Made by a program: the position numbers and the translations under genes | Notes under the pieces: model-generated | Seen by the model: only the letters and a program-made list of their open reading frames with translations | What the model was told of the DNA's origin: nothing | The model's database searches: none | DNA from: Candidatus Eiseniibacteriota bacterium | GTDB lineage: Bacteria > Eisenbacteria > RBG-16-71-46 > CAIMUX01 | Direction of reading: 5' to 3' | Assembly (NCBI GenBank): GCA_963833505.1 | Contig: CAWHYG010000007.1 | Coordinates: forward strand, 195,964 to 259,963 | Length of the DNA: 64,000 nucleotides | Shown here: in pieces, positions 12,235 to 60,113 of the stretch | Layout of the letters: each line of letters begins with the position of its first letter | Position numbering within the stretch: position 1 is the stretch's first letter

Positions 12235-12334
12235 GCCGCCATCCCCTCCTTCGGCGGGAGCGCCGCGGTCCGACGCGCCGGTCGCCGTGAACGCCCGCCG
12301 ACCGGGCGGGCGCCATGATCATCCTACATCGCGA

Positions 12335-14257
12335 TCAATCCCGGCCGCCGGCCGCTCCTCCGGAAGCCGCTCCGGCGCTGAGCGCGGCCTGGACGCGGCG
12401 CAGGCCTTCCTGGGCTCGCCCGTATCGCGTCTTGAGGCTCAGAGCGGCCTGGTACTGGACGAGGCTCGCCGGGAGCTGCCCCAGCGCCTCCAGGGAAGCG
12501 GCGAGATTGCAGCGGAGAAGAGCGTCCTCCGGCTTGAGGGCGACCGCTCGCTCGAAATAGGGGAGGCTCTGCGCCATCTGACCGGATGAAGCCAGAGCCG
12601 CTCCCAGGTCGTTGCACGCGGACGGGTTGTTCGGATTCGCCTCGAGCGCCTGCCGGAATTCCGCGATGGCCGCGCCGGTGGCGCCTCGGGTCCAGTACGC
12701 GATTCCGCGCTGATAGTGCCAGCGCGCCGGACTCCCGTGCACACCTGCGAAATTGATCGAGGCGAGGACGCCCGCGACGATCAAGAGGCTTCCCCAGCGG
12801 ATCAGGGGCGACCAGTTCCTGTCCCGGAACCATCGGCCCATGCGTTCAAGAAAAACGGCGGCCAACAGGATGAGCAGGGGAACGATGGGGAGACGGTAGC
12901 GGGTGGTGATGCCGAAGGGCAGGTATGACACCACCCAGGCGACGAGGAAGAGGAGCAGAAGCGCCGGCACCACGTTCCCGCGGCGCGCCTCGCCGGGCGG
13001 CAGCGTCTCTCCGCGCCGCTTTTCCCCGGAAGCCGGCTTCTTCCTCTCGCGCCAGGCCGCCAGCAGCCACTGGAGCGCGCCGGCCAGGCCCAGCGCCAGG
13101 ATCGGAGGGAAGCCCACCGGATCGAACCTCAGCACCGCCGAGGACTTCCTCTCCAGCGCCAGCTCCTTGCTGTCCGAAGACTCTTCCGGCCCCCAGAAGA
13201 TCAGCGCACGCCGGCCGAGAAGCTCAAGCTCGCGCCCCGGATGTGCCGCCATGAAGCGGAACGCCCGGCCGGAGTAGTAGCTGGAAAGCTCGGAGTAGCT
13301 GAGCTTCCGGCCCAGCCGGGCTTCAACGTTGGCCGCCAGCTCAGGGTAGTCGTAGCAGGTGTGGCGGACGTCGATCTCCGGATTGTCGGCGCTGACCAGG
13401 CCGTTGGCAGTCTCGTTGTTCCCCATGAACAGGTTGATGCCGCCGTTGGAAGAGATCGGCACCAGCTCGCGGCTCGCGGTCCAGTTGCGGATCGTCGCCG
13501 GCAGGATCATCAAGAGCGCCCCGAGCGACAAGGCGAGGATCGTGGCCGGACATCGGCGGCGCTCTCCGTCGCTGCGCTCGATCCAGTACGTCCAGACCCA
13601 CGCCGCCGGGAGCAGCAGAAGGGCGCTGGGCCGCGCCAGGCCGTTCAGGCCGATCAGGACGCCCGCCCCGGCCGCCCGGAGCGGCGTCCTCTGCCTCTCC
13701 CAGGACATCAGCGCGAGAATCAGGCCGAGCAACAGCAGGACCATCAGCACCGGTTCCTGGAATTCCCCTTCGAAGTAGATGAAGGTCCAGTAGGTCGCCA
13801 TCAGGAGCGCGGTGATCCCGCCGGCCGCGGGACCGAAGGCCACGGACGCGATCCGGAACGCCAGGCAGACGTTCAGCAGTCCCAGCGCCATCTGGAGCAG
13901 ACGGGGGCCGAGATAACCGGGGCCGGTCGCGCGATACAGGAGACCGAGGAAGTAGGGATAGCCCGGAGGCCGGAAGTACGGAGTCGTTCGAATCTGCGGG
14001 TCCGGATTGTCCCCCGGCGGCTGCCATTGGCCGAAGGCGAGAGCGCGGGCCCAGTAGTTGTGATAGTCCGCGTCGGCCTGGGGCGCGTTGTAGTCGGGCG
14101 CGCGCGTCAGGTCCAGCAGGTAGAGTCCGCGAAGACCGGCGCCCAGAAGAAGCGCCAGCGCCAGCACGGCCAGCGCCCACCGCCTCCGGGGCATCGTCGG
14201 CCGCGGCGCAGGGATTCCCCGTTCGCGAGCAGCGGGTTTACGCGCGGGCCGGCTCAT
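12335..14257 (-). CDS. glycosyltransferase family 39 (ArnT/PMT-like) membrane protein with C-terminal TPR repeats
   Basis: ORF 12335..14257, 640 aa; N-terminal multi-TM domain with DADYHNYWARALAFG ... TTPYFRPPGYPYFLGL; C-terminal TPR repeats; start ATG overlaps upstream stop (TGATG). Confidence 0.75.
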   Translation of the reverse strand: MSRPARKPAARERGIPAPRPTMPRRRWALAVLALALLLGAGLRGLYLLDLTRAPDYNAPQADADYHNYWARALAFGQWQPPGDNPDPQIRTTPYFRPPGYPYFLGLLYRATGPGYLGPRLLQMALGLLNVCLAFRIASVAFGPAAGGITALLMATYWTFIYFEGEFQEPVLMVLLLLGLILALMSWERQRTPLRAAGAGVLIGLNGLARPSALLLLPAAWVWTYWIERSDGERRRCPATILALSLGALLMILPATIRNWTASRELVPISSNGGINLFMGNNETANGLVSADNPEIDVRHTCYDYPELAANVEARLGRKLSYSELSSYYSGRAFRFMAAHPGRELELLGRRALIFWGPEESSDSKELALERKSSAVLRFDPVGFPPILALGLAGALQWLLAAWRERKKPASGEKRRGETLPPGEARRGNVVPALLLLFLVAWVVSYLPFGITTRYRLPIVPLLILLAAVFLERMGRWFRDRNWSPLIRWGSLLIVAGVLASINFAGVHGSPARWHYQRGIAYWTRGATGAAIAEFRQALEANPNNPSACNDLGAALASSGQMAQSLPYFERAVALKPEDALLRCNLAASLEALGQLPASLVQYQAALSLKTRYGRAQEGLRRVQAALSAGAASGGAAGGRD

Positions 14258-16212
14258 CAGGGGTTCGGCGCCCGCCGGTCCTCGCCGGTCGCCAGGGCGC
14301 GTTGGATCCGGGCGAGGCCTTCCTGGGCCCGCCGGGAATCAGGATCGATCCTGAGCGCCTCCTCGTACTGCGTCCTCCCGTCCGACGGGCGGCCCAGAGC
14401 TTCGTAGGCCGCCGCCAGGTTGCAGCGCGTCACGGCGTCGTCCGGTTTCGACTGGACCGCGCGCTGAAAGTACACGAGGGCCTCGCCCATCCTGCCTTCC
14501 TGCGCGAGAGTCGTCCCGAGGTCGTTGCACGCCGCCGCGTGGCGCGGGTTCGCCTGAAGCGTCTCGCCGTATTCGCGCACGGCCTCGTCTCTCCGGCCCA
14601 GGCGCTGGTAGGCGATGGCGCGCTCGTAGTGCCATCGAGCGAGGCTCGGCTGGTACCGGAGCGGATCCAGGTGGGCGAGAAGGAAAAGGACCACGAACAA
14701 CCCCGCCCATCGACCGGCCATCGCGAGGTTTCGCTTCTTCAGGAGGCCGACCACCCGCATCACGAACACCGCGCCGAACAGCATCAGAAACGGGATGACC
14801 GGTACGCGGTAGCGCGACGTGATGACGAAGGGCAGATAGGAGAGGAACCAGACGATCAGGATGACGAGCAAGAGCTCGGTCAGCTCCTGCGCCTGATCGG
14901 AAACCTCGCCGGCGCGCCGATCCGGCGGTCGAGCCCGCCGCTCCTTCATCAGCAGGATGATCCCGCCGAGGCCCAGAGCCAGCACGAGGGAGAAGCTCCA
15001 TGGGTTCCACCGCAGCACTCCCAGCGCCTGCCGCTCCGCTTCGACGACCTTGCTGTCGTCGAGTTCCTTGGGTCCCCAGAAGAACAACGTCTTCCTTCCG
15101 GCGAGGCCCAGGCTGTCGAGCGGATGATCCAGCAGGAAGCGAAGCGCCCCGCGGGAGAAGTAGGCCGAGACCTCGGCGTGCGACATGGGACGGCCGAGCT
15201 TCCTCTCCACCCGGGCCACGATCTGCGGCCAGTCGTAGCAGGTGTCAAGCTCGCCGATGTCGGGCAGGGTGCCGCGGACCAGCCCGTCGGCCCGCCCGTT
15301 GTTCCCCATGTACAGGTTGATGCCGCCGTTCGAGGAGATGGGCACGAACTCGTGGGCGACGCTCCAGTTGCGGATGGTGGCGGGAAGAAGGGCCAGCGCC
15401 ATCCCGCCGAAGAGCGCAGCGACGTTTCCGGTCCATCGCGCCCGCGCGCGCCGGCGCTGCAGGATCCACCAGGCCCACAGCGCGACGGCCGGACCGAGCA
15501 CCAGGGCGTTCGGACGGATCAGCGCGATGAATCCCATCAGGATCCCGGCCGCCAAAGCCAGGAGCGGACGAGGTTTCGCCGCCCAGCGCAGGAGCAGATA
15601 AACCAGGAGGAGCAGGAGCGGGCAGAGGAGCGCGGGATCGAGCAGCTCGCCTTCATGGAAGATGAAGACCCAGTCGGTCGCCGTCATGCCGGCGAAGACC
15701 AGCCCCACCGCGGGTCCGAAGATCGGCGCGGCCAGGAAGAACGCCCCGGCCGACGTGACCAGGCCCAACAGCATCTGGACGACGCGGGGTCCGACGTAGC
15801 CCGGCCCGGTCAGCTTGTAGACGAGGGCCAGAAAATACGGGTATCCCGGCGGACGGAAATAGGGAGTGGTCCGGATCTCGGGATCGGGATTGCCCCAACG
15901 CTGGGTCCACGATCCGAAGGCGAGGCCCCGAGCCCAGTAATCGTGGTAGTCGGCGTCCACCTCGGGAACCTTGAAGTCAGGCTGCCGGGCGATCTCCGTC
16001 AGATAGACGCCGCGCAGAACGGCTCCCAGGAGCAGGATCGCGGCCAGAACGAGCAGGACCCCCGGTGTGATCGCAAGCGACGCGCGCCACGACCGCGCGC
16101 TCCCGCCCGGCCGCGCGTCCCGCGTGGCTCCGGCACCCGGCGCTCCCGGTTTCCCGCGCGGAGGCGACGTCCCCTCGGGACGTTTGCCCCCCTCTTTGGC
16201 GACTCGATTCAC
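14257..16212 (-). CDS. glycosyltransferase family 39 (ArnT/PMT-like) membrane protein with C-terminal TPR repeats (paralog of 12335..14257)
   Basis: ORF 14257..16212, 651 aa; same motifs as the neighbour (DADYHDYWARGLAFG, TTPYFRPPGYPYFLAL); C-terminal TPR. Confidence 0.75.
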   Translation of the reverse strand: MNRVAKEGGKRPEGTSPPRGKPGAPGAGATRDARPGGSARSWRASLAITPGVLLVLAAILLLGAVLRGVYLTEIARQPDFKVPEVDADYHDYWARGLAFGSWTQRWGNPDPEIRTTPYFRPPGYPYFLALVYKLTGPGYVGPRVVQMLLGLVTSAGAFFLAAPIFGPAVGLVFAGMTATDWVFIFHEGELLDPALLCPLLLLLVYLLLRWAAKPRPLLALAAGILMGFIALIRPNALVLGPAVALWAWWILQRRRARARWTGNVAALFGGMALALLPATIRNWSVAHEFVPISSNGGINLYMGNNGRADGLVRGTLPDIGELDTCYDWPQIVARVERKLGRPMSHAEVSAYFSRGALRFLLDHPLDSLGLAGRKTLFFWGPKELDDSKVVEAERQALGVLRWNPWSFSLVLALGLGGIILLMKERRARPPDRRAGEVSDQAQELTELLLVILIVWFLSYLPFVITSRYRVPVIPFLMLFGAVFVMRVVGLLKKRNLAMAGRWAGLFVVLFLLAHLDPLRYQPSLARWHYERAIAYQRLGRRDEAVREYGETLQANPRHAAACNDLGTTLAQEGRMGEALVYFQRAVQSKPDDAVTRCNLAAAYEALGRPSDGRTQYEEALRIDPDSRRAQEGLARIQRALATGEDRRAPNP

Positions 16213-40808: not shown

Positions 40809-41315
<507 letters not shown>

Positions 41316-41320
41316 GCGGA

Positions 41321-41350
41321 CGCGGCGGGGCCTGCAAGGCCGCGCCGCCG
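41321..41350 (+). terminator. GC-rich hairpin downstream of accB (terminator-like)
   Basis: gcggcggggcc-tgcaa-ggccgcgccgc, ~8 nt after the accB stop; no clear U-tract. Confidence 0.35.
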
Positions 41351-41506
41351 GCGAGAAGTCAAGGGGGTCCTCTTCCCGGCGCGCTACGCCGGCGCTCCGA
41401 CGTTCCGATCGAACGGCGGCCCTTCTGCCGAGGCCGTGCGCCGGCGTTCCGATCGGCAGGCCGCTCTCTTGATGAGGCCGCGCCCCGGCAGGTGTCCGGC
41501 GAAAGG

Positions 41507-42727: not shown

Positions 42728-42810
42728 AGCGTTCCGGTCGCGACGCGACCGACGTTCCCACGACCCGGGCGGCGGATCGGTTCCGGGAAGGGGCAGAGCG
42801 CAGGAGGCGC

Positions 42811-46151: not shown

Positions 46152-47522
46152 ATCGACCGGGCCCGCGCGCGGCGGGCCGGCTGGCCCGAAGTGATGGCCC
46201 GGGCCGTCAGGTAGAGACCGAGGAGGCCGAGGACGATGTTCGGAAGCCACATCGCCAGCCAGGGGGAGATGATCAGGCGGTCGGCCAGTTGCTCGCCTCC
46301 GACCAGGCAAAGGTAGTAGAACAGGAAGAAGACCACGCTGAAGAACGCCGCCGCCATCCCTCCGCGCCGGGCCATGGTTCCGAGCGGGGCGCCCACGAGA
46401 ACGAACACGATGCAGGCGACCGGAATCGAGAGCTTCTTCTGGATCTCGACCCGGTAGCTGCTGATCTGGCGTTTGACCGAGCTGATCTCGTCCATTCTGG
46501 GATCGGATCTTCTCGGCCTCGAGCTTCTGCTCCGACGTCCAGCTCGGGGGAGCGCCGGAAGGCACGGCGGGAGCACGGTGGCGGAGGGCGCCGAGCAGGA
46601 CGGCCGCTTGGAGGAGGGGAACGGGATAGACCCGATTCAGGTCGGCCAGGCTCTTGACCGGAAGTTTCGTCATCTCCTGCCGGATGAGCGTGTCCTGCCG
46701 CGCCTGCTCGGTCCGGAGCGTGCGCACGGCGGCCTCCATGGCCGGGATCGACATCTCCCGCTGGCCGCGCTGATGTTCCATCGTGGTCCGGAACTGATCG
46801 GTCGGGTCGCTGATGTTGAGGGTCTGGGCGTCGAAACGGAGCCGCCGATACTCGCCCGTCGTCGAGGTCGGATCGGCCTCGTGGATCTCGCCGTCCACGA
46901 GGTCCAGCGTGAGCGAGTTCGTGTCCGCGCGGAACCGGAGCGTACCGGTGCGCGCCAGGATGGTCCTCGGCGAGATCGGATGGGTTCTCCCGTCCAGGAT
47001 GAGCACATCCCGCATCGCTCCGGTGGCGTCGTCCAGGTGGCCGATCCAGAGGTCGTACCCCCGGAAGTCGGTGATCATCACCCCCTCGCGGATCTGGGCG
47101 GTCGGGTGCTTCCGGGAGACGTCGCTCAAGGTCTGCGAGTATCCGTAGTTCATGTCGGGCAGGATGTAGTTGTTGAAGAGCGCCAGCACCCCGGCCACAA
47201 TCACGGAAGCTGCAAGCGCCGGGCGCAGCACGGTCATGAGGTGGACGCCGCTGGCCCGGATCGCGATGATCTCGTTGTCCTGGCTAAGGCGGCCGAAGGT
47301 CATCAGGACGGAGACCAGGACTCCGCAAGGCACGGAGAGGGCGACCATCCAGCCGAGGGCCAGGACGAAGAGCTTGAGGACGATCCAGGCGCCGACGCCC
47401 TTGACGATGAGGAGCTCCAGAAGGTCCAGGAGCATGTCGATCGTCAGGAGAAAGGTCACGAAGCCGAACCCGATGAAGAACGGCCCGACCAGGGATCGGG
47501 CCACATAGCGTTTCAGGATCAT
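46148..47522 (-). CDS. LptF/LptG-family LPS export permease (apparent frameshift ~46500-46600)
   Basis: N-terminal 300 aa in the frame of ORF 45042..47522 (MILKRYVARSLVGPFFIGFGF ...); C-terminal TM region in the frame of ORF 46148..46576 (EIQKKLSIPVACIVFVLVGAPLG ... LGLLGLYL); a G5 run at 46546-46550 lies in the switch region. Confidence 0.7.
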
Positions 47523-47718
47523 CCGTGCCTTTTTTCCATCTTCGGGGGCCCGGCGCCCCCCCGATGCCGCCCGAGACGGGCGACCTCCCTGTTCGAACCC
47601 CTCAGCATCATACCCGCTCCCGGCCGAACTTGTCCCGGTCCCAGGAGTATAAGCGGGTAGTACGGGGAGACCGCGAGGTTCGAAATCTCGCCGCTGGAAT
47701 GCGGCGCCCTGGAGTGTC

Positions 47719-50700
47719 TTGAAGCGACGATCCGGAATGATCCGGCGCCGAAGCTCCGGAGTCTGCGCCCTCTTCCTGCTCCTTCTGTTCGCGGCGGGGC
47801 CAACCGGTCCCCGGAGAACTGGAGCGGAGTCGGAGTTTGCCGTGCCCGGCGGCGCGGCCGCTCATCCGGCGGACGGGGCGGGAGCTCCCGCATCCGATCC
47901 GGGGCGGGGTGCGGATGAGACGCAGCCTGATTCCGCCAAGGTCGCGCCTCCGGACACCCTGCCCGCGCCTCGCGCCAGGCCGATTCCCCCGGTCTCGAAC
48001 TCCGCGGCTCGGCCGGATTCCGCGCGGTCGGTGGGTCCGGACACGCTGCCGGCGTCCCATCCCACGCCGGCTCCGCAGGCGGCCACGACCGCGGCTCGGC
48101 CGGATTCCGCGCGGTCGGTGGGTCCGGACACGCTGCCGGCGTCCTATCCCACGCCGGCTCCGCAGGCGGCCACGACCGCGGCTCGGCCGGATTCCGCGCG
48201 GTCGGCGCGTCCGGACACGCTGCCGCCTTCCAATCCGGCGCCGGCTCCGCAGGCGGCCACGGCCGCCGCTCGAGCCGATTCCTTCCGGGTGGCCCTGCCC
48301 GACACCCTGCCGATCCCAGCCCCGGTGGAGGAGATCACCTCCTCCGACACCAGCCGAGCCGGCCTACCTGTTGAGAATCCAGCGCAACCGGACACCTCCA
48401 AGGGCCGCGGGACCAAAGCGGCTCCGGTGGCGGCTGCGGGAGTCCTGGCTGCCGCGCTCGCCGCCGGCGATACGGCGGCCGTCCGCCAGGCGTTCGCGCA
48501 ATTTCCGTTCTGGGTTCCGCCCCCGGGACTGTGCCCGAGTCAACAGGCGTTTCTCTTTCGGGTCGTCTCCGAGGAGCGGTGGGCCGACGTCATCCGGACC
48601 GGAGGGTTTCTCAAGCCTGAGATCCAGATGCGTGAAGACAGCCTGACCGCGCGGCTCATCATCCCGGAGGCGCCTCGCCTGAGCCTTGCCGACCAGGTGA
48701 CCCAGCAGGCGTCACCCCACGCCGACGACGGCGCGATCGAGCTCACGCGGACGGTCCGGGACACGCCGGTGGAGCCTCCGGTTCGAATGACCCAGGCCGA
48801 ATACCTGTCGCGTCTGACCCAGACGCAGTTCCGGCAGTTCTGGAAGGAGACGGTGGATCAGAGCCTCCGGAACAACGCGACCCAGGAAAACGGCCGGAAA
48901 GGGCTGCTCCGATTCGATCTGCCCGTCCAGCTTCCCTCGCAGCTTCAGACCATCTTCGGGGCCGGCAATCCCGATCTGTCCTGGCGCGGAAGCGAGAAGA
49001 TGTCGTTCGGCGGCACTTCCATCTGGCATCCCAATCTGATTGCCAACGAAATCGCCGCCAAGGAGTCGAAGTTCCCCCAGCTCGAGATGAAGCAGGACCT
49101 GAACTTCTCCCTCACCGGCACGATCGGGGACAAGGTCTCGGTGGACCTCGATCAGGCGACCGACACGGCCACGCCGCTCGCGAACAAGATCAAGATCCGC
49201 TACAAGGGATACGACGACGAGGTCGTCCAGAAGATCGATCTCGGCAACACCAGCCTGAGCCTGCCGGGCACGCAGTACGCCACCTACAGCGGAAACGTCG
49301 AAGGCCTGTTCGGAATCAACGCCCTGTCGCGCCTGGGCCCGGTCGACGTCACGACCATCCTCTCGAAGCAGGAGGGGCAGAACGAGTCGAAGACGGTGAG
49401 CGCCGCGGCCGAAACGAAGACGATCCAGATCAACGACATGGACTACATCGCGGGGAAGTACTTCTTCCTGCGCACTCCGAACGGTTGTCCCTGGCAGCTC
49501 GACCAGAACTCGCTCAGCGTCTTCCTCGACGACAAGAACGGATCCAACGACGTGCAGCAGGGAGCGATTCCGGGGAAAGCGACCCTGGACGGCAACTCCG
49601 CCGACGGCGGCCACAGCTATCCGGGCATGTTCTACCGGCTCCAGCCGGGACCGCCTCCCGACGGCCAGTACGAGATCCAGAATGACGTCTACACCGGCCA
49701 GCCGGTGCTGATCCTGAATGACGCACTGAACGACCGGTACGCCCTCGCCGTGACCTACGCCGGCTGGTATCTCGACGCCAACCTCCACCCCGACCAGGGC
49801 AGCCCGATCCACGTCGGTCAGATCGCGGCGGACACGCTGCGGCTCGAGTTGCTCCGTCCTTCCGTCTCCGATCTCTCGACCAATCGGAGGCAGGGAACCT
49901 GGGGCCCGCTGGCCAACCTGGAGCTTCGCAACATGTACGATCTCCAGGCTCGAGGGATCCTGAAAGCCGGGTTCCAGCTTCACATCCGGTTGAAGAGCTC
50001 AAGCGGCGGAGTCGTCGAGCCCGACCGGATCGGGCAGACCACCTTCCTGCAGATGACGGCTCTCGACCTGTCCAAGCAGACCGACACCGGTTACTCGCCC
50101 GGCCGCGACGACCTGGTCGACGACCAGTTCATCAGCTATCAAAACGGGATTCTCCACTTCCCGGACCTTCGACCCTTCGATCCCGACTCGTCCGACCTGG
50201 GGTTGCCTCCGGTACGCTGCAACGGTTTCGCCTACGCCCGCTATGGTCCGGCCAGCCCGGCCGATCCGACCGATTGGGTGAACTCGACCCTCCGGACCTA
50301 TGACACCCAGACGGCCTACCGCCCCAGGGTGCTGCCGATGTCGCCCGACTCGGCCAGCCTGTTCCGGGCGCCCGCCATCTATGACAACGTGATCCGCCAG
50401 GACACCGACAGCCGCTACTACCTGGAGATCACCTACAGCAGTCCGGTCAGCAAGATCGATCTCGGCGCCGTCGGGATCCTGGCGGGCAGCGAAACGGTGA
50501 CGGCGGGGGCGAGGACCCTGGTGCGGGACCGCGACTATCGGATCGACTACGACGTCGGGGAGGTCGAGATCCTTCCGGCCGCCGGCATCACCGAGTCGGA
50601 CCAGATCCACGTGACCTACTCCTATCTGCCGTTCGCCGGCACGGGCGGACAGAAGACGCTGTTCGGCACCGCCGCCTCCTATGCGCCCGAGCAGGGCAAT

Positions 50701-53700
50701 CTGTCCTTGTCGACCGCCTGGCTCTTCCAGAGCCAGGGCGGCGTTTCCGGCATCGAAGGGAACCGGCCCCGCCTGGGCCAGGAGCCGTCCCGCACGCTGG
50801 TGGGAGAGGTGGCCGGAACGTACAAGACCGACTCCAGGCTGATCACGAAGCTCATCGACGACATTCCGGGAGTGGACACGCGCCTCCCGACCAAGATCGA
50901 CCTGGCGGTCGGAGCCGGCATCTCCGTGCCGAACCCGAACACGAAGAACGTCCTTTACATCGACGACTTCGATGGAGTGAAGGACGACACGCCGCTCAGC
51001 ATGAACCGGCTGTCCTGGCGATGGAGCTCCATCCCGGGATCGGACCTGACCGGCGCCGCCCTCCAGACGAAGGCGAATCGACATGGGGAGCTGTGGTGGT
51101 ACTCCCCGCGCAACATCGTGCATGAGAGGGATCTCCAGCCGACGCTGGACCAGCAGGAGGGCGAGAACAGCCACCAGGTCATGATGCTGCAGTTCTATCC
51201 GCACGTTCCGGACACGGACAGTCCCGACAGTTCCTGGGCCGGGCTCACCACGCCGATCTCGGTCACCGGCCAGGACTTCTCTCGCGCCCAGTTCCTCGAC
51301 ATCTGGGTCAACGACTTCATCCAGTGGCCCGACGTCCTGCACCGGCGCCGCGGCAAGCTGCACATCGACCTGGGCAAGGTGAGCGAAGACGCCATGTGGT
51401 ACAAGAACGACCCGTCCGCTCCGGCTGACCAGTGGAAGGTCGTGCTCCCGAATGGAAAGCTCGACACCGAGGACGCCAACCGGGACGGCAAGCTCGACCA
51501 GACGGAGGACGTTGGTCTGGACGGCATCAAGCACGGCGATCCGGGGGCCGATCCCAACGACGTCTATCAGTACGATGACAGCGCCCCGGAGTCCGACCAG
51601 AAGTACGCGCACGTCAACGGGACCGAGGGCAACCAGATTCTCGACACCGAGGACCTGGACGGCGACGGCCAGCTCGAGACCCAGAACTCCTACTTCGAAA
51701 TCACCGTGGATCTGGGGGACTCGACCCTGTGGCAGACCGACGTCTACCGCGACTATCCGGGCTACCGTGGCAAGCTCGATTCGTCCAACGGCTGGCGCCG
51801 GATCCGCATCCCCCTGCAGGTGGACACCCTGGTCCATCCGGTGTACGACTTCGCCGCCGGTCCTCCGGTCTGGGCCAAGATCTTTCACGCGCGCCTCTGG
51901 GTCTCCGGGCTCTCGGCTCCGACCCAGATCGAGCTGGGCGGCATCGACATCACCGGCAATCGGTGGTTCCAGAGCCAGATCGCCGACTTGAGGGGCCGCC
52001 TGCTGCCCGACAGCGCCCTGGCGCCGGGGGAGAGCTTCTTCATCGGGACGGTGAACAACAAGGACGACGCGTCCATCTATCAGTCGCCGGTGACGATCCA
52101 GAAGGACGCCAACAACATCCCCGAGCAGGAGCAGTCCATCACGCTGAACCTCACCGAGTTCCAGCCCGGGCACGCGGCCACCATCTACCGGACGTATCCG
52201 GACCGCCAGGACTACACCTTGTACAACGACATGCAGTACTACGTGAGCGGATACAACCAGGGGAGCTCCAATCTGGTCTGCGGGGTGCGGCTCTGCCGGG
52301 ACGCGGTCTCCGATTCGGCCAACTATTACGAGTATCAGATCCCGGTGAAGTCCGAATGGCAGCTCGTCGACATCAATCTGGCCGCCCTGAGCCGGCTGCA
52401 GCTTTTGCGTCCCGACACGGTCAGCGGCATGGTGGCGCAGGATCTCGGTAACGGCGTCCGCATGATCCGGCGGGGAGCGCCCTCGTTGAACAGCGTCCAG
52501 AGGATCAGCTTCGTCGTGTACAACACGGGGAGCTTCCCGGTGACCCAGGGGAGCGTCTGGATCGACGAGCTGCGTCTGACCGACGTCAAGAAGGACGTGG
52601 GGCTCGCGGCCCGCATGCACCTGGGGGCGGATCTCGGCGGCCTGGCCCGTCTGGACCTGAGCTACCAGCGCACGGGGGCCGACTTCCTCACGGTGGGAGC
52701 GGATCGCGGCAGCGGCACCACGACGACGACCTGGGGTTTCGCCGGGTCGAGCGACAACCTGTTCGGATTCGGCGACCGTCTGGGCCTGAACCTGCCGGTC
52801 CACGTGACCTACAACGACACGCGGGCCGTGCCGAAGTTCCGCCCGAACAGCGACCTCATCCTGGACACGCCCCGGACCGGCGACATCTCGGTGACCAACA
52901 GCGAGGAGTTTTCGTTCACCGCCCAGCGGAAGCAGTCCCCGGAGTGGTGGAGCCGGTATCTGCTCGAGCCCTTCTCCTTGAGCGGGCGCGTGAATCGGTC
53001 GCTCGATCTCGAGCCCACCAGCCAGGACACCTCGGTGACCCGGAGCGGCTCGGTGGCCTGGAACTTCTCTCTCGAGCAATGGGGGGACATCGGGCTGAGC
53101 CAGAAGATGAAACTCCGCCTGATCCCCACCATGCTGTCCGCCACGGTGACCGGCGCGACCACGCAGGACCGGCGCTATTACCGGAGCGACGTCAATTCGG
53201 ACTACGCGCCTCAGCCCAGCCAGGACCTGACCTCCGCTGGCCTCGCCTTGTCTGCGGCTGCCCGGCCCTTGACGCCGGTGACCTATCGCATCGACAGCAC
53301 GCGCGATCTCATGCTCCACGAGGGGGAGATGAAGCTGTTCGGCATGAACCTGGGGGAGGAGACGGCGCGCCACCACCAGCTCAGCGCTTCAACCGACATT
53401 CCAATCCTGAGACAGATCCTGTCCCCGAGGGTGTCCTGGTCGGGCAACTCCGGTCTGGCCGCCGCCATCCAGACCTCGGTGCTGCCGGGGGAACCCGCGC
53501 GGCAGCTCTCCTTCAACAACTCGCGAACGACGGACTGGGGGGGACGCCTCTCGCTGCCCGATCTGTTCCACGGCCTGACCACCTTCGGGCGCCGTCGCGC
53601 CGCCCAGGACACAACCGGCGGAAAGGGGTCGCGGGCCAATGGAGCTTCACCGCTCCCCGGGTCTCTGGCTCCGAACGCGCCCCCGCCCGCGCCTTCCGGA

Positions 53701-55227
53701 CGGTTTCCTTCGCCCGGCCGGTTGTCGAATCCAGAGCCGGGCGGCGCGCCGGACTCGAATCCTGGTTCTCGTTTCTCGAACCCGCCGTCGGGCGGCCCAT
53801 CGTTCTCGAACCCGATGCCTGGCGCGGACCAGAATCCGACCTCGAACCCGGCTACGAATCCGGAAACGAGCCCGGCCACGAACCCGACGACCAACCCGCC
53901 CACGAATCCGGCAACGAGCCCGGCTACCAACCCCGCGACGAACCTGGCAACAGGCCCGGCCACGAATCCGGCAACGAGCCCGGCCACGAACCCGACGACG
54001 AATCCCCCAACGAACCCAGCGCCCGCCACGAACCAGAGGTCACCGGTCTCGGGTCCGGATTTGCCGATCGCCCCGGAATCCCCACCGGTGCCTCCGGGGC
54101 TTCCGTATCAGCCGCCGGAGCCCGAGCCCGCCCAGCCCGGGGCGGAGGGCACCCCGCCAAGTGGCGGGACCGCCCAGCCGTCTCCCTCGGCGCAACCGGG
54201 AAATGAGGCCGCTCAGTCGCCCGCCGGCGCAACCCAGAACCCGGCGCCGGGAACGAAACCACCGCCGTCGCCTCACGCCGGGTCCCTGGCCCGCCAGCTG
54301 GGCGTGAGCTTCATGTCCCTCGGCGCCATCGAGATCTCCTACGGTCTCAGCACCCAGACGAGCTACTCGAGCCAGAAAGGGGAGCCGAGTCTCTTCTACC
54401 AGCTTGCGTTCGTGAACAGTCCGGGGCCGGGCGCTCAGGCGCTGAGTCGCGCCACCGCCACCGAGACCAACTCGCAAACCCTCGACCTGAGCACCAACCT
54501 CAAGCTTCCCCGGGCGATCAATGTTGCGCCGCGGTACTCCCGTTCGACCGGTCAAACGGCCACGAACGGACTCACGACGATGACCAACGACCTCAAGTGG
54601 CCCGATCTCGACATCAGCTGGGGCAATCTGTACCAGGCGATCGGATTGGGCAGATGGTTCCAGGGCTTCCAGGCGAACACCCACTACAGCAAGGAGAGGC
54701 GGATCCAGGGTTCGACCGACTACCCGGAGACGAACCTGACCTCGGGCTATTCTCCGCTGCTCAACGTCAACGCCACGTTCAAATCGGGCGTGACCGCCAC
54801 CCTGAATTCCAGCTACACCTCCACCTCCGACCTGCTTACGGGCGCGGGCGAGGCCGGCGGGTACGAAACCGAAAACGACACGGACCACCTGCAATGGACG
54901 ATCACCTTCAAAAAGACCTTGAACCTGACGAAGAAGATCGCCGTGCCGATGACCAAGGAAGTCAAGACGGTGCAGACGAGGGTCGATCTCAACGCGAGCC
55001 TCGACTACATCGCCGACAAGCGGGAAACCCGAGCCTCCGGCCAGCCTCCGGTGGTGACCGACAACCGCGCGAGCGTCAAGTTCGAAGCCGGCCTGGGCTA
55101 TCAGTTCACCCAACGGATCAACGGAACCGGGTCGCTCAACTTCGGCAAGGACGTCGACAAGAAGAACGACGCCAATTCCGTGAATCAGCTCGGACTCGTC
55201 TTCACCGTCACCTTCTCGCTGGACTGA
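47719..55227 (+). CDS. sprA: giant outer-membrane protein, SprA-like (candidate type IX secretion translocon), 2502 aa
   Basis: ORF 47719..55227 with no internal stop; signal peptide; beta-rich throughout, ending in a beta-barrel-like C-terminus (...QLGLVFTVTFSLD); calcium-binding-like DxDxDG repeats; size matches SprA (~2400 aa); family assignment is from memory, not a search. Confidence 0.6.
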   Translation: MKRRSGMIRRRSSGVCALFLLLLFAAGPTGPRRTGAESEFAVPGGAAAHPADGAGAPASDPGRGADETQPDSAKVAPPDTLPAPRARPIPPVSNSAARPDSARSVGPDTLPASHPTPAPQAATTAARPDSARSVGPDTLPASYPTPAPQAATTAARPDSARSARPDTLPPSNPAPAPQAATAAARADSFRVALPDTLPIPAPVEEITSSDTSRAGLPVENPAQPDTSKGRGTKAAPVAAAGVLAAALAAGDTAAVRQAFAQFPFWVPPPGLCPSQQAFLFRVVSEERWADVIRTGGFLKPEIQMREDSLTARLIIPEAPRLSLADQVTQQASPHADDGAIELTRTVRDTPVEPPVRMTQAEYLSRLTQTQFRQFWKETVDQSLRNNATQENGRKGLLRFDLPVQLPSQLQTIFGAGNPDLSWRGSEKMSFGGTSIWHPNLIANEIAAKESKFPQLEMKQDLNFSLTGTIGDKVSVDLDQATDTATPLANKIKIRYKGYDDEVVQKIDLGNTSLSLPGTQYATYSGNVEGLFGINALSRLGPVDVTTILSKQEGQNESKTVSAAAETKTIQINDMDYIAGKYFFLRTPNGCPWQLDQNSLSVFLDDKNGSNDVQQGAIPGKATLDGNSADGGHSYPGMFYRLQPGPPPDGQYEIQNDVYTGQPVLILNDALNDRYALAVTYAGWYLDANLHPDQGSPIHVGQIAADTLRLELLRPSVSDLSTNRRQGTWGPLANLELRNMYDLQARGILKAGFQLHIRLKSSSGGVVEPDRIGQTTFLQMTALDLSKQTDTGYSPGRDDLVDDQFISYQNGILHFPDLRPFDPDSSDLGLPPVRCNGFAYARYGPASPADPTDWVNSTLRTYDTQTAYRPRVLPMSPDSASLFRAPAIYDNVIRQDTDSRYYLEITYSSPVSKIDLGAVGILAGSETVTAGARTLVRDRDYRIDYDVGEVEILPAAGITESDQIHVTYSYLPFAGTGGQKTLFGTAASYAPEQGNLSLSTAWLFQSQGGVSGIEGNRPRLGQEPSRTLVGEVAGTYKTDSRLITKLIDDIPGVDTRLPTKIDLAVGAGISVPNPNTKNVLYIDDFDGVKDDTPLSMNRLSWRWSSIPGSDLTGAALQTKANRHGELWWYSPRNIVHERDLQPTLDQQEGENSHQVMMLQFYPHVPDTDSPDSSWAGLTTPISVTGQDFSRAQFLDIWVNDFIQWPDVLHRRRGKLHIDLGKVSEDAMWYKNDPSAPADQWKVVLPNGKLDTEDANRDGKLDQTEDVGLDGIKHGDPGADPNDVYQYDDSAPESDQKYAHVNGTEGNQILDTEDLDGDGQLETQNSYFEITVDLGDSTLWQTDVYRDYPGYRGKLDSSNGWRRIRIPLQVDTLVHPVYDFAAGPPVWAKIFHARLWVSGLSAPTQIELGGIDITGNRWFQSQIADLRGRLLPDSALAPGESFFIGTVNNKDDASIYQSPVTIQKDANNIPEQEQSITLNLTEFQPGHAATIYRTYPDRQDYTLYNDMQYYVSGYNQGSSNLVCGVRLCRDAVSDSANYYEYQIPVKSEWQLVDINLAALSRLQLLRPDTVSGMVAQDLGNGVRMIRRGAPSLNSVQRISFVVYNTGSFPVTQGSVWIDELRLTDVKKDVGLAARMHLGADLGGLARLDLSYQRTGADFLTVGADRGSGTTTTTWGFAGSSDNLFGFGDRLGLNLPVHVTYNDTRAVPKFRPNSDLILDTPRTGDISVTNSEEFSFTAQRKQSPEWWSRYLLEPFSLSGRVNRSLDLEPTSQDTSVTRSGSVAWNFSLEQWGDIGLSQKMKLRLIPTMLSATVTGATTQDRRYYRSDVNSDYAPQPSQDLTSAGLALSAAARPLTPVTYRIDSTRDLMLHEGEMKLFGMNLGEETARHHQLSASTDIPILRQILSPRVSWSGNSGLAAAIQTSVLPGEPARQLSFNNSRTTDWGGRLSLPDLFHGLTTFGRRRAAQDTTGGKGSRANGASPLPGSLAPNAPPPAPSGRFPSPGRLSNPEPGGAPDSNPGSRFSNPPSGGPSFSNPMPGADQNPTSNPATNPETSPATNPTTNPPTNPATSPATNPATNLATGPATNPATSPATNPTTNPPTNPAPATNQRSPVSGPDLPIAPESPPVPPGLPYQPPEPEPAQPGAEGTPPSGGTAQPSPSAQPGNEAAQSPAGATQNPAPGTKPPPSPHAGSLARQLGVSFMSLGAIEISYGLSTQTSYSSQKGEPSLFYQLAFVNSPGPGAQALSRATATETNSQTLDLSTNLKLPRAINVAPRYSRSTGQTATNGLTTMTNDLKWPDLDISWGNLYQAIGLGRWFQGFQANTHYSKERRIQGSTDYPETNLTSGYSPLLNVNATFKSGVTATLNSSYTSTSDLLTGAGEAGGYETENDTDHLQWTITFKKTLNLTKKIAVPMTKEVKTVQTRVDLNASLDYIADKRETRASGQPPVVTDNRASVKFEAGLGYQFTQRINGTGSLNFGKDVDKKNDANSVNQLGLVFTVTFSLD
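48007..48267 (+). repeat. in-frame 87-bp tandem repeat x3 (29-aa unit ARPDSARSVGPDTLPASHPTPAPQAATTA) in the N-terminus of the SprA-like gene
   Basis: Three near-identical copies (1-2 nt differences) seen in both nucleotide and protein sequence. Confidence 0.85.
53640..54270 (+). repeat. low-complexity Pro/Thr/Asn/Ser-rich region with short tandem units (TNPA/ATNP) inside the SprA-like gene
   Basis: Translation ...NPATNPETSPATNPTTNPPTNPATSPATNPATNLATGPATNPATSPATNPTTNPPTNPAP...; ~66-bp units repeated at DNA level. Confidence 0.8.
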
Positions 55228-55766
55228 CAGCCCGATCCTCGCCCGACTGACGGTCCGTTCCGTCGGCGACTCCATCCTCCGATCGGCGATGGCCTGCCGG
55301 CCCTTTGCGCGCCTACCGGATCCGGCCCTCCGCGAACCGACGCGTGGGCCGAGGGTTCGAAACCGCCCCTTCGGAACGGCCGGGTCTCCGTCTGAGGTGG
55401 CCGTTCCCATCCGGCAGCCCCACGGGCCATGCCTCGAGGCTGAGCTATAGACATGATTGGCGGGCGCGAACGGTTCTGGCATACTGAGGAAGATGTTCCG
55501 TCCCGAACTGGCTCCCGGAAACTCCGGCGGGCCGGGGAGGTCGCAGCGACTCACATCTGCGGGGGATACCTGGTGGCCTAGGTTTTCCCATGGAGTCAGA
55601 ACCGACGGCTGGGGCCGTTGAGGAGCCTGCCGCCCCGTTTGATTTGGACGGGGGGCAGGGGGTCACTCTGCCCTTGCCACGGTGTCCGACCCTGTGTACG
55701 GTGAGACTGCGTGGACGGACGTCCACGTTTTTGTTTGAGCGGAGGTGTCTCTCCGGGGAGACTGGG

Positions 55767-56303
55767 GTGAGGCAGGCGGAATTAGCCGAGCTGGTTCGAC
55801 CTCTGCTCAATGAGGAGAAGTGTGAGCTGGTCGAGTGCTCGGTGTCGCGGACGGCGCACGGCCAGACCTTCCGCGTCTCAATCGATCGGGAGGGAGGAGT
55901 GCCCATTGAGGCCTGCGCGCATGTCAGCCGGAAGATGGCCTTGCTCCTCGACGCCAATCCGCTTCTCCGAGGCACGTATCAGCTCGAGGTCTCCTCGGCC
56001 GGAATGCACCGGCCCATCTGGAGCGTGGAGCACTTCCTGCGGTTTCAAGGGGCGCCGGTCCGGATCGAGCTGGCGGATCCGGCGGCCAATCCCCGCCGCA
56101 TCCGGGGAACGATCGGTCCGGTGGAAGGAGAGCGGGTCCGGATCCGGCTGGAGGGAAACGGGGGCGAGATCGTGTTGAGCCTGGGCGAAATCGGCCGCGC
56201 GCAGCTCAACCTGGACCCCTGGAAGAAGAGGGAAGCGATCGGGCTGGAAGGGACGGATCGGCGAGATCATGGCAATCATGGCGACGACGGACGAAATCCT
56301 TGA
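55767..56303 (+). CDS. rimP: ribosome maturation factor RimP
   Basis: Within ORF 55590..56303; LVRPLLNEEKCELVECSV ... YQLEVSSAGMHRPIW ... FQGAPVRIEL matches RimP; start set at GTG after ggggag. Confidence 0.8.
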   Translation: MRQAELAELVRPLLNEEKCELVECSVSRTAHGQTFRVSIDREGGVPIEACAHVSRKMALLLDANPLLRGTYQLEVSSAGMHRPIWSVEHFLRFQGAPVRIELADPAANPRRIRGTIGPVEGERVRIRLEGNGGEIVLSLGEIGRAQLNLDPWKKREAIGLEGTDRRDHGNHGDDGRNP

Positions 56304-57761
56304 GGCCTTGCGGCAGATCGCCCGCGAGAAGAGCGTCGATCGGAAACTTCTGATCGAGACCCTGGAAGCGGGCATTCTGAGCGCGGCCAAGAAGCGCTAT
56401 GCGACCGCGGCCGACGTTCAGGTGGCCTTTGACGACATCACCGGAAGGATCAAGGTCCTGGTCCACAAGAAGGTCGTGCCTGTGGCCATCGACCTGGAAG
56501 GGGAGATCGACCTGGAGGAGGCGACCACGCTGATTCCCGGCATCCGGGTCGGCCAGACCATTCCGGTCGAAGTTCCGGTGGCGGAGTTCGGGCGCAACGC
56601 CATCCAGGCCGCCAAGCAGGTGCTCGTCCAGCGCGTCCGCGAGGCGGAACGGGACAACGTCTATCAGGAGTTCATCGACCGGAAGGGGCAGGTCGTGTCC
56701 GGCACGGTCTCGCAGGTCGATCGCGGCAGCGCCATCGTCAAGATCGGCAAGACCGAAGGCATCATTCCGCCCCGCGAGCTCATGTACCGGGATCGCTTCA
56801 AGATCGGCGACCCCGTGCGGGCCCTGCTCCTGGACGTCGATCGGAACCAGAAGGGGCCGATGCTGGTCCTCTCGCGCACCAACCCCGAGTTCGTGCGCCG
56901 GCTCTTCGAGAACGAGGTGCCGGAGATTTTCGAGCGGGTCGTGGAGATCCGCGAGATCGCCCGCGAACCAGGGTCGCGGACCAAGATCACGGTGATCTCG
57001 CACGACGACCGCGTGGATCCCGTGGGCGCCTGCGTCGGAATGAAGGGCTCGCGGGTCCAGTCCATCGTGCGCGAGCTGGGGGGCGAGCGGATCGACATCG
57101 TTTCCTGGAGCCCCGATCCCAAGATCCTGGTCAGCCGCGCGCTGTCGCCCGCCCGGGTGCTGGACGTCCAGATCCACGCCGAAGAGAAGCGGGTCACGGT
57201 CATCGTGTCGGACGATCAGCTCAGCGTGGCGATCGGCAAGGGCGGGCAGAACGCCCGTCTGGCCTCCAAGCTGACCGGCTACGGCATCGACCTCAAGAGC
57301 CAGTCCCAGGTCGAGCTGGCCGGCGGCGGCGGACCCGCGATCGAGCTGGAAGATCTGAGCAAGGAGCTGGGACCGCGCCTGGTCGAGCGCCTGATCAAGG
57401 CGGGCAAGGAGACGTTGCAGGACGTCCTCGGGACCTCCGCCGAGGACTTGATGGAAATCCCCGGGATCGGCGAGAAGACTGCGGGCCGCCTGCTGGCGCT
57501 GGCGCGCCAGATCCTGGACGAGCGGGCGGCGGGAGCCGGTCGGGAAGGCGAATCGGAGTCGGCCCAAGGCCCCGAAGAGGGCGCGGAGACGGCGCCGAGC
57601 GCGGCCGCCAGCGCCGAGACGCCCGAAGAGCCCGCGGAGGGAACGGATCTGGAGGCTGCGGCCCCGTCCGGCGGGGAGTCGGCGGAACCGGCGCCGGAGA
57701 GCGGGTCGGAGGCTGAGCCGGGAGGGCGTCCGCCGGCGGACGAGACGGGGGAGGAACGGGA

Positions 57762-57765: not shown

Positions 57766-60113
<2,348 letters not shown>

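What the first reader, a model, noticed from the sequence alone, without database searches (positions are those of the whole stretch)
53640..54270. Long Pro/Thr/Asn-rich low-complexity insert with TNPA-type micro-repeats inside the SprA-like protein
About 190 residues of predicted disordered, repetitive sequence interrupt an otherwise beta-rich protein. Such Ser/Thr/Pro-rich stretches are typical O-glycosylation targets, which is notable given the GT-C/TPR glycosyltransferase cluster in the same window.
Basis: partly seen in the sequence, partly recalled or inferred. Interest (0 to 1): 0.4.

Follow-up and report, generated by a model that had tools for sequence, protein, structure and literature searches.

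The report
Disordered loop expansion in SprA translocon
A roughly 230-residue floppy, proline-rich stretch is really present inside the outer-membrane secretion pore protein SprA of an uncultured Eisenbacteria-like bacterium, but it is an overgrown version of a loop that varies in length across this protein family, so it is an ordinary kind of feature, with one testable lead about sugar attachment.

Summary
ORF 47719-55227 (+) is a SprA/Sov type 9 secretion translocon (TIGR04189 475 bits, cutoff 200). Residues 1957-2187 (window 53587-54279) are 80% P/A/G/T/S/N, including 16 in-frame TNPA-type 12-nt units (53830-54021). AlphaFold2 gives pLDDT about 31 across the stretch.

Syntenic orthologues have 29-242 residues between the same anchors (median 56); the query has 263. 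Twelve predicted strands follow the insert, which places it between barrel strands 24 and 25. By parity this is a periplasmic turn (inferred). It appears to be the loop that is proteolytically clipped in F. johnsoniae SprA.

In 90 cluster representatives this loop spans 2-275 residues, and 10 are at least 100 residues. It is therefore a family-wide site of low-complexity growth. The query is an extreme and unusually uncharged case. TNPA-like tetrapeptide arrays also occur in unrelated proteins.

The glycosylation idea is only partly supported. The GT-C/TPR genes lie about 37 kb away and are unlinked. The TNPA array carries no Bacteroidota-type D(S/T)x sequon. That sequon is, however, enriched in this loop (57 observed, 15 expected) and in the SprA N-terminal tails (180 versus 28). 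The query keeps one (DTT) at the loop base.

Best reading: a tolerated, slippage-born expansion of a permissive loop.

The parts
47719..55227 (+). SprA/Sov-like T9SS outer-membrane translocon gene. It is 2502 codons from the TTG at 47719; the likely true start is the ATG at 47737.
   Evidence: TIGR04189 475 bits against a cutoff of 200. PF14349 56.6 bits against 27. phmmer to 6h3i/6h3j SprA, E 2e-30. Foldseek of the C-terminal 1200-residue model to 8gl8_A/6h3i_A, E 2e-30 to 7e-26. GC3 is 0.86.
47737..47808 (+). Probable signal peptide, MIRRRSSGVCALFLLLLFAAGPTG.
   Evidence: Read directly from the sequence. The database entry P0001 (2461 aa) starts 41 codons downstream of the TTG and omits it.
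47896..48318 (+). N-terminal Ala/Pro-rich disordered tail. It contains four copies of a ~29-residue unit (ARPDSARSVGPDTLPASxPTPAPQAATTA) and carries 10 D[ST][AILVMT] triplets.
   Evidence: The sequon count is 10 observed against 1.0 expected in residues 1-300.
53503..53550 (+). Predicted barrel strand 24 (QLSFNNSRTTDWGGRL).
   Evidence: AlphaFold2/DSSP strand at fragment residues 627-642, high pLDDT. The numbering is inferred from the 12 strands that follow the insert.
53554..53592 (+). Short amphipathic helix that follows strand 24 (LPDLFHGLTTFGR). The pattern G-[RD]-[LF]-x-[LF]-x-x-L-[FY] is conserved in homologues.
   Evidence: Its counterpart in F. johnsoniae SprA lies at about residues 1883-1896.
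53608..53619 (+). Conserved D-[ST]-x-G motif at the base of the loop (DTTG, residues 1964-1967). It matches the Bacteroidota O-glycosylation sequon.
   Evidence: D[ST]xG occurs in 25 of 63 homologous loops against 1.6 expected. In 90 cluster representatives D[ST][AILVMT] is seen 57 times against 15.2 expected.
53620..53829 (+). First part of the expansion: Pro/Gly/Ser-rich, with three copies of an (F/L)SNPxPGG unit.
   Evidence: Direct-repeat family D2 at 53722, 53773 and 53803; translation.
53830..54021 (+). TNPA-type tetrapeptide array: 16 in-frame 12-nt units of the form [TSQ]-[NSG]-[PL]-[ATEP].
   Evidence: Mean unit-to-unit identity is 70%; the longest exact repeat is 27 nt (53865/53973).
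54022..54279 (+). Third part of the expansion: a Pro/Gln/Ala/Gly/Glu-rich tail without regular repeats.
   Evidence: pLDDT about 30.
54328..54378 (+). Predicted barrel strand 25 (IEISYGLSTQTSYSSQK), the first of 12 strands that run to the C-terminus.
   Evidence: AlphaFold2/DSSP strand at fragment residues 902-918. It aligns to the segment IGVLTSIKNVQINY of F. johnsoniae SprA, which starts at residue 1939.
12335..16212 (-). They are context only and are not shown to be linked to SprA.
   Evidence: Pfam PMT_2 40.6 and 48.2 bits (cutoff 26.1) plus TPR repeats. No NCBIfam family above cutoff. They lie about 37 kb from the insert.

Best explanation
The segment is a genuine, in-frame, lineage-specific low-complexity expansion of the connection between beta-strands 24 and 25 of the 36-strand SprA/Sov barrel. 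The host is a bacterium related to Candidatus Eisenbacteria. The expansion adds about 215 residues.

The connection lies on the same side of the membrane as the N- and C-termini, which is the periplasmic rim of the translocon. This placement is inferred from strand parity. The connection is intrinsically disordered and tolerates very different lengths and compositions across the family.

The expansion grew by slippage or duplication of short units: 16 x 12-nt TNPA units and 3 x FSNPxPGG units. The product is a nearly uncharged, Pro-rich, non-collapsing lasso anchored at both ends.

Most likely it is tolerated rather than required. The barrel, the short helix after strand 24 and the conserved D-T-T-G motif at the loop base are all retained, and the extra chain simply hangs into the periplasm. 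If it is modified, the best-supported site is the conserved DTT sequon, not the TNPA repeats.

Shown: identity of the protein, position of the insert, disorder, repeat anatomy, lineage specificity, and family-wide variability of the loop. Inferred: periplasmic side, slippage origin, near-neutrality.
For: Identity: SprA family membership is supported.

Orthology: the LptFG-SprA-RimP-NusA gene order is conserved in Eisenbacteria loci.

Lineage specificity:
- Between conserved anchors the query has 261-263 residues. Close homologues have 35-107.
- 67 homologues have 29-242 residues, median 56.
- In 90 cluster representatives the loop spans 2-275 residues, median about 40, with 10 of at least 100. 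By the same measure the query (about 241) is the second longest.
- The long loops differ in composition, which points to independent expansions.

Disorder: pLDDT is about 31 across ORF residues 1958-2197, while the flanks score 85-94.

Topology:
- 12 long strands follow the insert.
- The SprA N-terminus is periplasmic, because it is enclosed by SkpA (PMC10994853).
- The query loop maps to F. johnsoniae residues about 1897-1938.

Relaxed constraint: A/T-ending codons make up 24% of the insert against 11% in the rest of the gene (Fisher p = 1.5e-7). GC3 is 0.76 against 0.87-0.91.

Generic nature of the repeat: T-[NDE]-P-x tetrapeptide arrays occur in unrelated proteins, including a eukaryotic Piezo, an X8-domain protein and Pfam PT-repeat proteins.

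No RNA family matches the region.
Against: No experimental data exist for this organism, and no second assembly or close relative (above 53% identity) was found to date the expansion.

The periplasmic assignment rests on counting DSSP strands. Two pairs of segments (fragment 938-956/959-961 and 1033-1043/1048-1052) were treated as single kinked strands. Model coordinates could not be inspected.

The equation of the query loop with the clipped F. johnsoniae loop is inferred; Lauber et al. 2018 could not be read.

The insert is unusual among long loops in being only about 9% charged, against 24-27% in the others. That could reflect selection for a particular physical property rather than drift.

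The lower codon bias could simply come from amplifying a seed unit that contained rare codons.
Confidence: 0.6

Rival explanations
1. The expanded loop is a functional, O-glycosylated periplasmic module. It would act as a mucin-like or PT-linker-like spacer or brush at the periplasmic mouth of the translocon. It could be glycosylated on many Ser/Thr by a PMT/TMTC-like GT-C+TPR enzyme, or at D(S/T)x sequons by a Bacteroidota-type general O-glycosylation system.
For: The insert has 48 Ser/Thr in 231 residues, 27% Pro and few charges. GT-C+TPR genes are present in the genome window, and there are precedents for such enzymes acting on proteins (TfpW, TMTC).

Sov is an O-glycoprotein in P. intermedia. 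One mapped site, T1979 in SFEQEVTIPADTTIVVSHSK, matches the loop segment KYERTITLKEDTSVMVRHNLK of the Bacteroidales-like homologue P0028.

The sequon D[ST][AILVMT] is enriched in this loop: 57 observed against 15.2 expected in 90 representatives, while the reverse motif gives 9 against 15.2. The query keeps DTT at the conserved position.
Against: The TNPA array and the P/Q-rich tail contain no D(S/T)x sequon. The whole insert has only DTT and DSN.

The GT-C/TPR genes are 37 kb away, unlinked, and of unknown acceptor specificity.

Loop length and composition are unconstrained across orthologues.

It is unknown whether Eisenbacteria have a Bacteroidota-type O-glycosylation system.
Confidence: 0.22
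2. The loop is extracellular (the strand-parity inference is wrong). It would then form a surface-exposed, repeat-number-variable antigenic or adhesive brush on the translocon cap.
For: Long variable loops in outer-membrane proteins are usually extracellular. Tandem repeats can vary in copy number. Model coordinates could not be inspected.
Against: An even number of strands (12) separates the insert from the C-terminus, and 24 precede the corresponding loop in F. johnsoniae (PMC10994853).

The repeat units are degenerate (70% identity, longest exact repeat 27 nt), which is a poor substrate for rapid phase variation.

Bacteroidota O-glycosites are biased to periplasm-exposed regions (PMC8729774), and one appears to lie in this loop in P. 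intermedia.
Confidence: 0.12
3. The stretch is an assembly or gene-calling artefact: a mis-assembled simple repeat, or two genes fused through a spurious open frame.
For: Only one assembly holds this sequence. In high-GC DNA, frames stay open easily; a second frame is also open across the insert.
Against: The repeats are imperfect and short, with a longest exact repeat of 27 nt. Both flanks are homologous and collinear with single-gene orthologues, so strands 24 and 25 must be in one polypeptide. The SprA frame is uninterrupted across the whole insert and continues into the conserved C-terminal strands; the +1 frame is also open there. The source contig is 2.45 Mb.
Confidence: 0.03

Closest known systems
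Loop between barrel strands 24 and 25 of Flavobacterium johnsoniae SprA (PDB 6H3I/6H3J/8GL8)
   Same: It sits at the same position in the same protein family. The query's flanks align to F. johnsoniae SprA at about residue 1896 and residue 1939, and 12 strands follow. The F. johnsoniae loop is flexible enough to be proteolytically clipped without loss of the complex (PMC10994853).
   Different: The F. johnsoniae loop is about 40 residues; here the disordered stretch is about 230, uncharged and repeat-bearing. That the clipped loop is this exact loop is inferred, because the 2018 structure paper could not be read.
O-glycosylated Sov (SprA) of Prevotella intermedia: the Bacteroidota general O-glycosylation system with sequon D(S/T)(A/I/L/V/M/T...)
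   Same: Same protein family. One of six mapped glycosites (T1979, DTT) appears to lie in the same loop. The query has DTT at the conserved loop base, and the sequon is enriched in this loop across representatives.
   Different: This organism is not a member of Bacteroidota, and neither glycan nor machinery was shown. In Bacteroidales the loop seems to contain a small folded beta segment rather than a low-complexity tract. The TNPA array itself lacks the sequon.
Tetrapeptide Pro/Thr disordered repeats (Pfam PF04886 'PT repeat', XPTX) and Pro/Thr-rich linkers of secreted proteins
   Same: Period-4, Pro- and Thr-containing, disordered, and arising convergently in unrelated proteins. phmmer hits to the TNPA array include PT-repeat proteins and many T-[NDE]-P-x arrays.
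   Different: The query does not reach the PF04886 threshold. The unit here is T-N-P-A (Asn-Pro core). It is not a linker between two domains but a closed loop anchored at both ends in a barrel wall.
Pro-rich periplasmic spacers such as those of TonB and OmpA-family proteins (from general knowledge, not tested here)
   Same: An extended, Pro-rich, low-hydrophobicity chain located in the periplasm and attached to a membrane protein.
   Different: Those spacers connect two functional domains and are usually charged (Glu-Pro/Lys-Pro). This chain is uncharged and connects two adjacent strands.

Membership tests
SprA/Sov T9SS translocon (TIGR04189, PF14349) | Whole-protein match to the curated equivalog model above its cutoff | tested here: met
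   TIGR04189 475.1 bits against cutoff 200. PF14349 56.6 bits against 27.
SprA/Sov T9SS translocon (TIGR04189, PF14349) | Giant single-chain beta-barrel fold like PDB 6H3I/8GL8 | tested here: met
   The AlphaFold2 model of the C-terminal 1200 residues has 8gl8_A, 8gl6_A, 6h3i_A and 6h3j_A as its top Foldseek hits, E 2e-30 to 1e-25. TM-scores are low (0.35-0.38) because only part of the barrel was modelled and 240 residues are disordered.
SprA/Sov T9SS translocon (TIGR04189, PF14349) | 36 transmembrane strands | tested here: inconclusive
   Only the strands after the insert were counted. There are 12, which is consistent with strands 25-36. The N-terminal 24 were not counted.
SprA/Sov T9SS translocon (TIGR04189, PF14349) | Co-occurrence with other T9SS components (PorV, PorK/L/M/N, SprE/PorW) | not tested
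   None were identified among the window ORFs scanned. The rest of the genome is not available.
Bacteroidota-type general O-glycosylation substrate | D(S/T)(A/I/L/V/M/T) sequon in an exposed extracytoplasmic segment | tested here: met
   DTT at residue 1964 at the loop base, and 10 sequons in the N-terminal tail. For the TNPA array itself the feature is not met: it has no sequon.
Bacteroidota-type general O-glycosylation substrate | Organism encodes the glycosylation machinery and the glycan is detected on the protein | not testable with these tools
   Only a 64-kb window of an uncultured organism is available. Needs glycoproteomics or heterologous expression.
   48 S/T and 62 P in 231 residues; pLDDT about 31.
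   The genes at 12335-16212 are about 37 kb from the insert, on the other strand, with housekeeping genes between. No PMT_2-TPR gene lies within about 10 kb of SprA in 51 related loci.
   PMT_2 domain above the Pfam cutoff (40.6 and 48.2 bits against 26.1) with C-terminal TPR. No NCBIfam model above cutoff. The neighbouring gene is an SGNH/AlgX-like esterase.
Pfam PT disordered repeat (PF04886, XPTX) | Match to the Pfam model above its gathering score | tested here: not met
   No PF04886 hit for the SprA protein at E <= 0.01. The resemblance is in period and composition only.

The most novel reading that the evidence does not exclude
A Bacteroidota-type general O-glycosylation system (D-S/T-hydrophobic sequon) operates outside Bacteroidota, in Eisenbacteria and their relatives. 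The periplasmic disordered parts of the SprA translocon, meaning the N-terminal tail and the strand 24-25 loop, are its preferred and selected targets. The expanded loop here would then be a glycan-bearing or glycan-presenting spacer at the periplasmic mouth of the type 9 translocon rather than junk.

The evidence is statistical only:
- Sequon 180 observed against 28 expected in 32 N-terminal tails.
- Sequon 57 observed against 15.2 expected in 90 loops.
- Reverse-motif and D[ST][other] controls at or below expectation.
- 474 background genes at 428 observed against 427 expected.

A non-glycan role for the same short motif, such as partner binding, is not excluded.
Probability: 0.25. Interest if true: 0.55.

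Novelty: new variant of a known kind. Interest (0 to 1): 0.3.

Why it matters
On its own the insert matters little. It shows that the strand 24-25 connection of the T9SS translocon can absorb more than 200 residues of disordered chain. That marks the site as permissive, which is useful for inserting tags or reporters into SprA, and as dispensable for barrel folding.

The more useful outcome is the side result. The Bacteroidota O-glycosylation sequon is specifically enriched in two disordered segments of SprA orthologues from lineages outside Bacteroidota. If these segments are really glycosylated, the known range of that glycosylation system would be extended. It would also point to a conserved role for glycans at the periplasmic face of the translocon. 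Glycoproteomics or heterologous expression could test this directly.

Tried and rejected
Searches for closer relatives or an independent assembly found nothing closer than about 53% identity:
- GTDB species representatives, with the C-terminal 315 residues as query: nothing. An alignment-based scan gave 51 Eisenbacteria-type loci, the best at 49% identity (a first alignment was too diverse).
- JGI metagenome contigs: nothing.
- 5.8 billion proteins: only the protein itself plus homologues of at most 53% identity. Cluster look-up gave no names.

Other dead ends:
- The TNPA core alone against 5.8 billion proteins gave no significant hit.
- tblastn of the insert against the window and 51 loci gave only compositional noise and no other TNPA array.
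- Rfam on 47000-56500 gave nothing.
- Overlapping ORFs, such as 53639-54307 (+) in another frame and 53283-54029 (-), were rejected as high-GC artefacts. Only the SprA frame continues into conserved, homologous flanks, and the minus-strand frames carry 2-3 stops across the insert.
- Lauber et al. 2018 (PMC6927815) is not held, so the clip site and loop side could not be read from the primary paper.
- The F. johnsoniae N-terminal tail could not be retrieved through the PDB sequence search.
- An extended 'DSxR...PDTLP' motif pair as an explanation for the N-terminal sequon enrichment was rejected. It is specific to the query's own repeats, and the contexts in other orthologues are diverse.
- PMT_2-TPR genes were looked for near SprA in related loci and none were found.
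- An intein, a mobile-element insertion and a foreign origin were considered and dropped. There is no domain hit, no homologue, the composition is purely low-complexity, and the flanks are collinear.
Full report
**1. What is there**

The finding lies inside one long ORF, 47719-55227 (+). It is 2502 codons from a TTG, with an ATG at 47737 followed by a typical signal peptide. The protein is a SprA/Sov type 9 secretion translocon:
- NCBIfam equivalog TIGR04189 scores 475 bits against a cutoff of 200.
- Pfam SprA_N scores 56.6 bits against 27.
- phmmer finds F. johnsoniae SprA (6H3I/6H3J) at E 2e-30.
- An AlphaFold2 model of the last 1200 residues has the four SprA cryo-EM chains as its top Foldseek hits, E 2e-30 to 1e-25.

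The flanking genes are a fused LptF/LptG upstream and rimP-nusA-infB-rbfA-truB-ribF downstream.

**2.

Residues 1957-2187 (window 53587-54279) have the composition P 26.8, A 13.4, G 10.4, T 10.4, S 10.4, N 9.1 %. Only 14 residues are hydrophobic and 21 are charged. The stretch has three parts:
- A P/G/S-rich part with three (F/L)SNPxPGG units.
- 16 in-frame 12-nt units encoding [TSQ]-[NSG]-[PL]-[ATEP], at 53830-54021. TRF reports period 12 x 15.5 copies, and period 36 with score 169.
- A P/Q/A/G/E-rich tail.

AlphaFold2 gives pLDDT of about 31 for ORF residues 1958-2197, against 85-94 for the flanking strands. The TNPA pattern occurs nowhere else in the six-frame translation of the window. The longest exact internal repeat is 27 nt and the units are 70% identical on average. 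Repeat collapse in assembly is therefore unlikely. No second assembly could be found.

**3. The insert is lineage-specific, but the site is a family-wide hot spot**

The closest relatives are SprA proteins of Candidatus Eisenbacteria MAGs, at no more than 53% identity. They share the LptFG-SprA-RimP-NusA gene order and are therefore orthologues.

Between the conserved anchors GRLSLPDLF... and ...EISY the query has 263 residues. The 67 homologues have 29-242, with a median of 56.

An exhaustive phmmer search of 1.84 billion cluster representatives gave 90 SprA-like proteins with both flanks. In these the loop spans 2-275 residues, with a median of about 40, and 10 are at least 100 residues long. 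By that measure the query (about 241) is the second longest.

The long loops have unrelated compositions: P/G/D/E, A/P/E/K, G/N/P/K and E/R. Expansion has therefore happened repeatedly and independently. The query stands out only in being nearly uncharged, about 9% against 24-27%.

**4. Where the loop sits**

In the model the insert follows a long strand (53503-53550) and a short amphipathic helix (53554-53592). It precedes a strand at 54328-54378. Twelve long strands then run to the C-terminus. In a 36-strand barrel that makes the insert the connection between strands 24 and 25.

Lauber et al. [quoted passage not shown] They also report that the SprA N-terminus is held by the periplasmic SkpA (PMC10994853). 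With a periplasmic N-terminus, an even-to-odd connection is periplasmic.

The query's flanks map to F. johnsoniae residues about 1896 and 1939, through a Bacteroidota-type homologue.

The periplasmic assignment is an inference. It depends on reading two pairs of DSSP segments as single kinked strands, and I could not inspect coordinates or read the 2018 structure paper.

**5. How it probably arose and what it does**

The nested short repeats point to slippage or duplication. The insert uses A/T-ending codons twice as often as the rest of the gene: 24% against 11%, Fisher p = 1.5e-7, with GC3 of 0.76 against 0.87-0.91. That fits relaxed constraint or amplification of a rare-codon seed.

Three facts support a tolerated expansion of a permissive, disordered periplasmic turn:
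- The loop tolerates cleavage in F. johnsoniae.
- It tolerates a hundred-fold length range across the family.
- It tolerates any low-complexity composition.

The product is a Pro-rich lasso hanging from the periplasmic rim. I give this reading 0.6.

T-[NDE]-P-x tetrapeptide arrays turn up in unrelated proteins: a eukaryotic Piezo, an X8-domain protein and Pfam PT-repeat proteins. The repeat type is therefore generic.

**6. The glycosylation idea**

The two PMT_2+TPR genes exist (12335-16212, minus strand). They are about 37 kb away and unlinked, and match no specific NCBIfam family above cutoff. GT-C+TPR enzymes can glycosylate proteins (TfpW, TMTC), but nothing connects these genes to SprA.

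A different line gives partial support. Sov is an O-glycoprotein in P. intermedia, with six sites, all at D(S/T)x (PMC10897501, Table S3). The peptide around T1979 (SFEQEVTIPADTTIVVSHSK) matches a segment inside the same loop of the Bacteroidales-like homologue P0028 (KYERTITLKEDTSVMVRHNLK). Bacteroidota O-glycosylation is biased to periplasm-exposed regions (PMC8729774).

The sequon D[ST][AILVMT] is enriched in this loop:

| Set | Motif | Observed | Expected from shuffles |
|---|---|---|---|
| 63 homologous loops | loops with D[ST][AILVMT] | 31 | 8.9 |
| 90 representatives | D[ST][AILVMT] sites | 57 | 15.2 |
| 90 representatives | reverse motif | 9 | 15.2 |
| 90 representatives | D[ST][other] | 38 | 34.6 |

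The query keeps DTT(G) at the conserved loop base (residue 1964). The 215 extra residues add only one further D(S/T)x triplet (DSN), and there is none in the TNPA array. If this SprA is glycosylated by such a system, the expansion itself is largely not the target.

**7. Side result**

The same sequon is strongly enriched in the disordered N-terminal tails of Eisenbacteria SprA orthologues: 180 observed against 28.0 expected over 32 tails. The reverse motif gives 27 against 27.6, and D[ST][other] 39 against 42.8. The query's tail has 10 against 1.0. The flanking contexts are diverse.

Background genes show no enrichment: 39 against 30.4 in the window, and 428 against 427 in 474 ORFs of related loci.

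Shared ancestry and internal repeats inflate these counts, and a non-glycan short linear motif is not excluded. The specificity of the controls nevertheless makes this a testable lead.

**8. Verdict**

The feature is real, correctly located and lineage-specific. It is an extreme member of a known kind: low-complexity growth of a flexible outer-membrane-protein loop that is already known to be protease-sensitive in SprA. A sequon-based glycosylation of the loop base and the N-terminal tail is a plausible alternative.

Noticed in passing
window 47896-48318 (SprA residues ~60-200), and the N-terminal tails of SprA orthologues in loci L001-L046 and proteins P0002-P0016: The Bacteroidota O-glycosylation sequon D[ST][AILVMT] is about 6-fold enriched in the disordered N-terminal tails of Eisenbacteria SprA orthologues: 180 observed against 28 expected. 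Reverse-motif and D[ST][other] controls are at expectation. The query has 10 against 1.0, mostly from four ~29-residue repeats (ARPDSARSVGPDTLPAS...). Background genes show no enrichment (428 against 427).
   Followed up: partly
window 47719-47841: The database version of this protein (P0001, 2461 aa) starts 41 codons downstream of the TTG and so lacks the signal peptide. The ATG at 47737 (MIRRRSSGVCALFLLLLFAAG...) is the more plausible start.
   Followed up: partly
window 45042-47522 (-): A single 826-residue ORF matches both LptF (TIGR04407, residues 2-252) and LptG (TIGR04408, residues 470-823), which suggests a fused LPS-export permease. It lies directly upstream of SprA, divergently oriented, and this position is conserved in about 40 related loci.
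   Followed up: partly
window 10990-16212 (-): Three co-oriented genes: an SGNH/AlgX-like esterase followed by two paralogous PMT_2 (GT-C) + C-terminal TPR proteins of 640 and 651 residues. None matches a specific NCBIfam family above cutoff, so the acceptor is unknown.
   Followed up: partly
window 53554-53619: A short amphipathic helix (LPDLFHGLTTFGR), then basic residues and a D-[ST]-x-G motif, are conserved at the start of the otherwise hypervariable loop, from Eisenbacteria-type to Bacteroidota-type SprA proteins. Their function is unknown.
   Followed up: partly
proteins P0095, P0101, P0115, P0125, P0126, P0133, P0161, P0163 (hits): Many unrelated proteins carry long T-[NDE]-P-x tetrapeptide arrays resembling the TNPA array. 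They include a eukaryotic Piezo channel homologue, an X8-domain protein and Pfam PT-repeat proteins. This points to convergent origin of this repeat type.
   Followed up: partly
locus L015 (SprA ORF 9788-16555), and proteins P0029, P0091, P0140: These show independent large low-complexity expansions of the same SprA loop, 152-275 residues long, with different compositions. P0029, from a Bacteroidota-type SprA, is also Asn-Pro-rich (GANNPAGNNPAANPGA...).
   Followed up: partly
window 58002-58181 (IF-2 residues ~81-140): There is a Pro-rich low-complexity stretch in the N-terminal region of IF-2. Together with the two SprA regions, these are the only stretches in the window's called genes that met the P/T/S/A/G/N-rich filter.
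   Followed up: no
window 40883-44232: The mechanical ORFs for a T2SSE-type ATPase (40883-42727) and a biotin carboxylase (42022-44232) overlap by about 700 nt. The carboxylase domains begin only at residue 264, so its real start is probably much further downstream.
   Followed up: no
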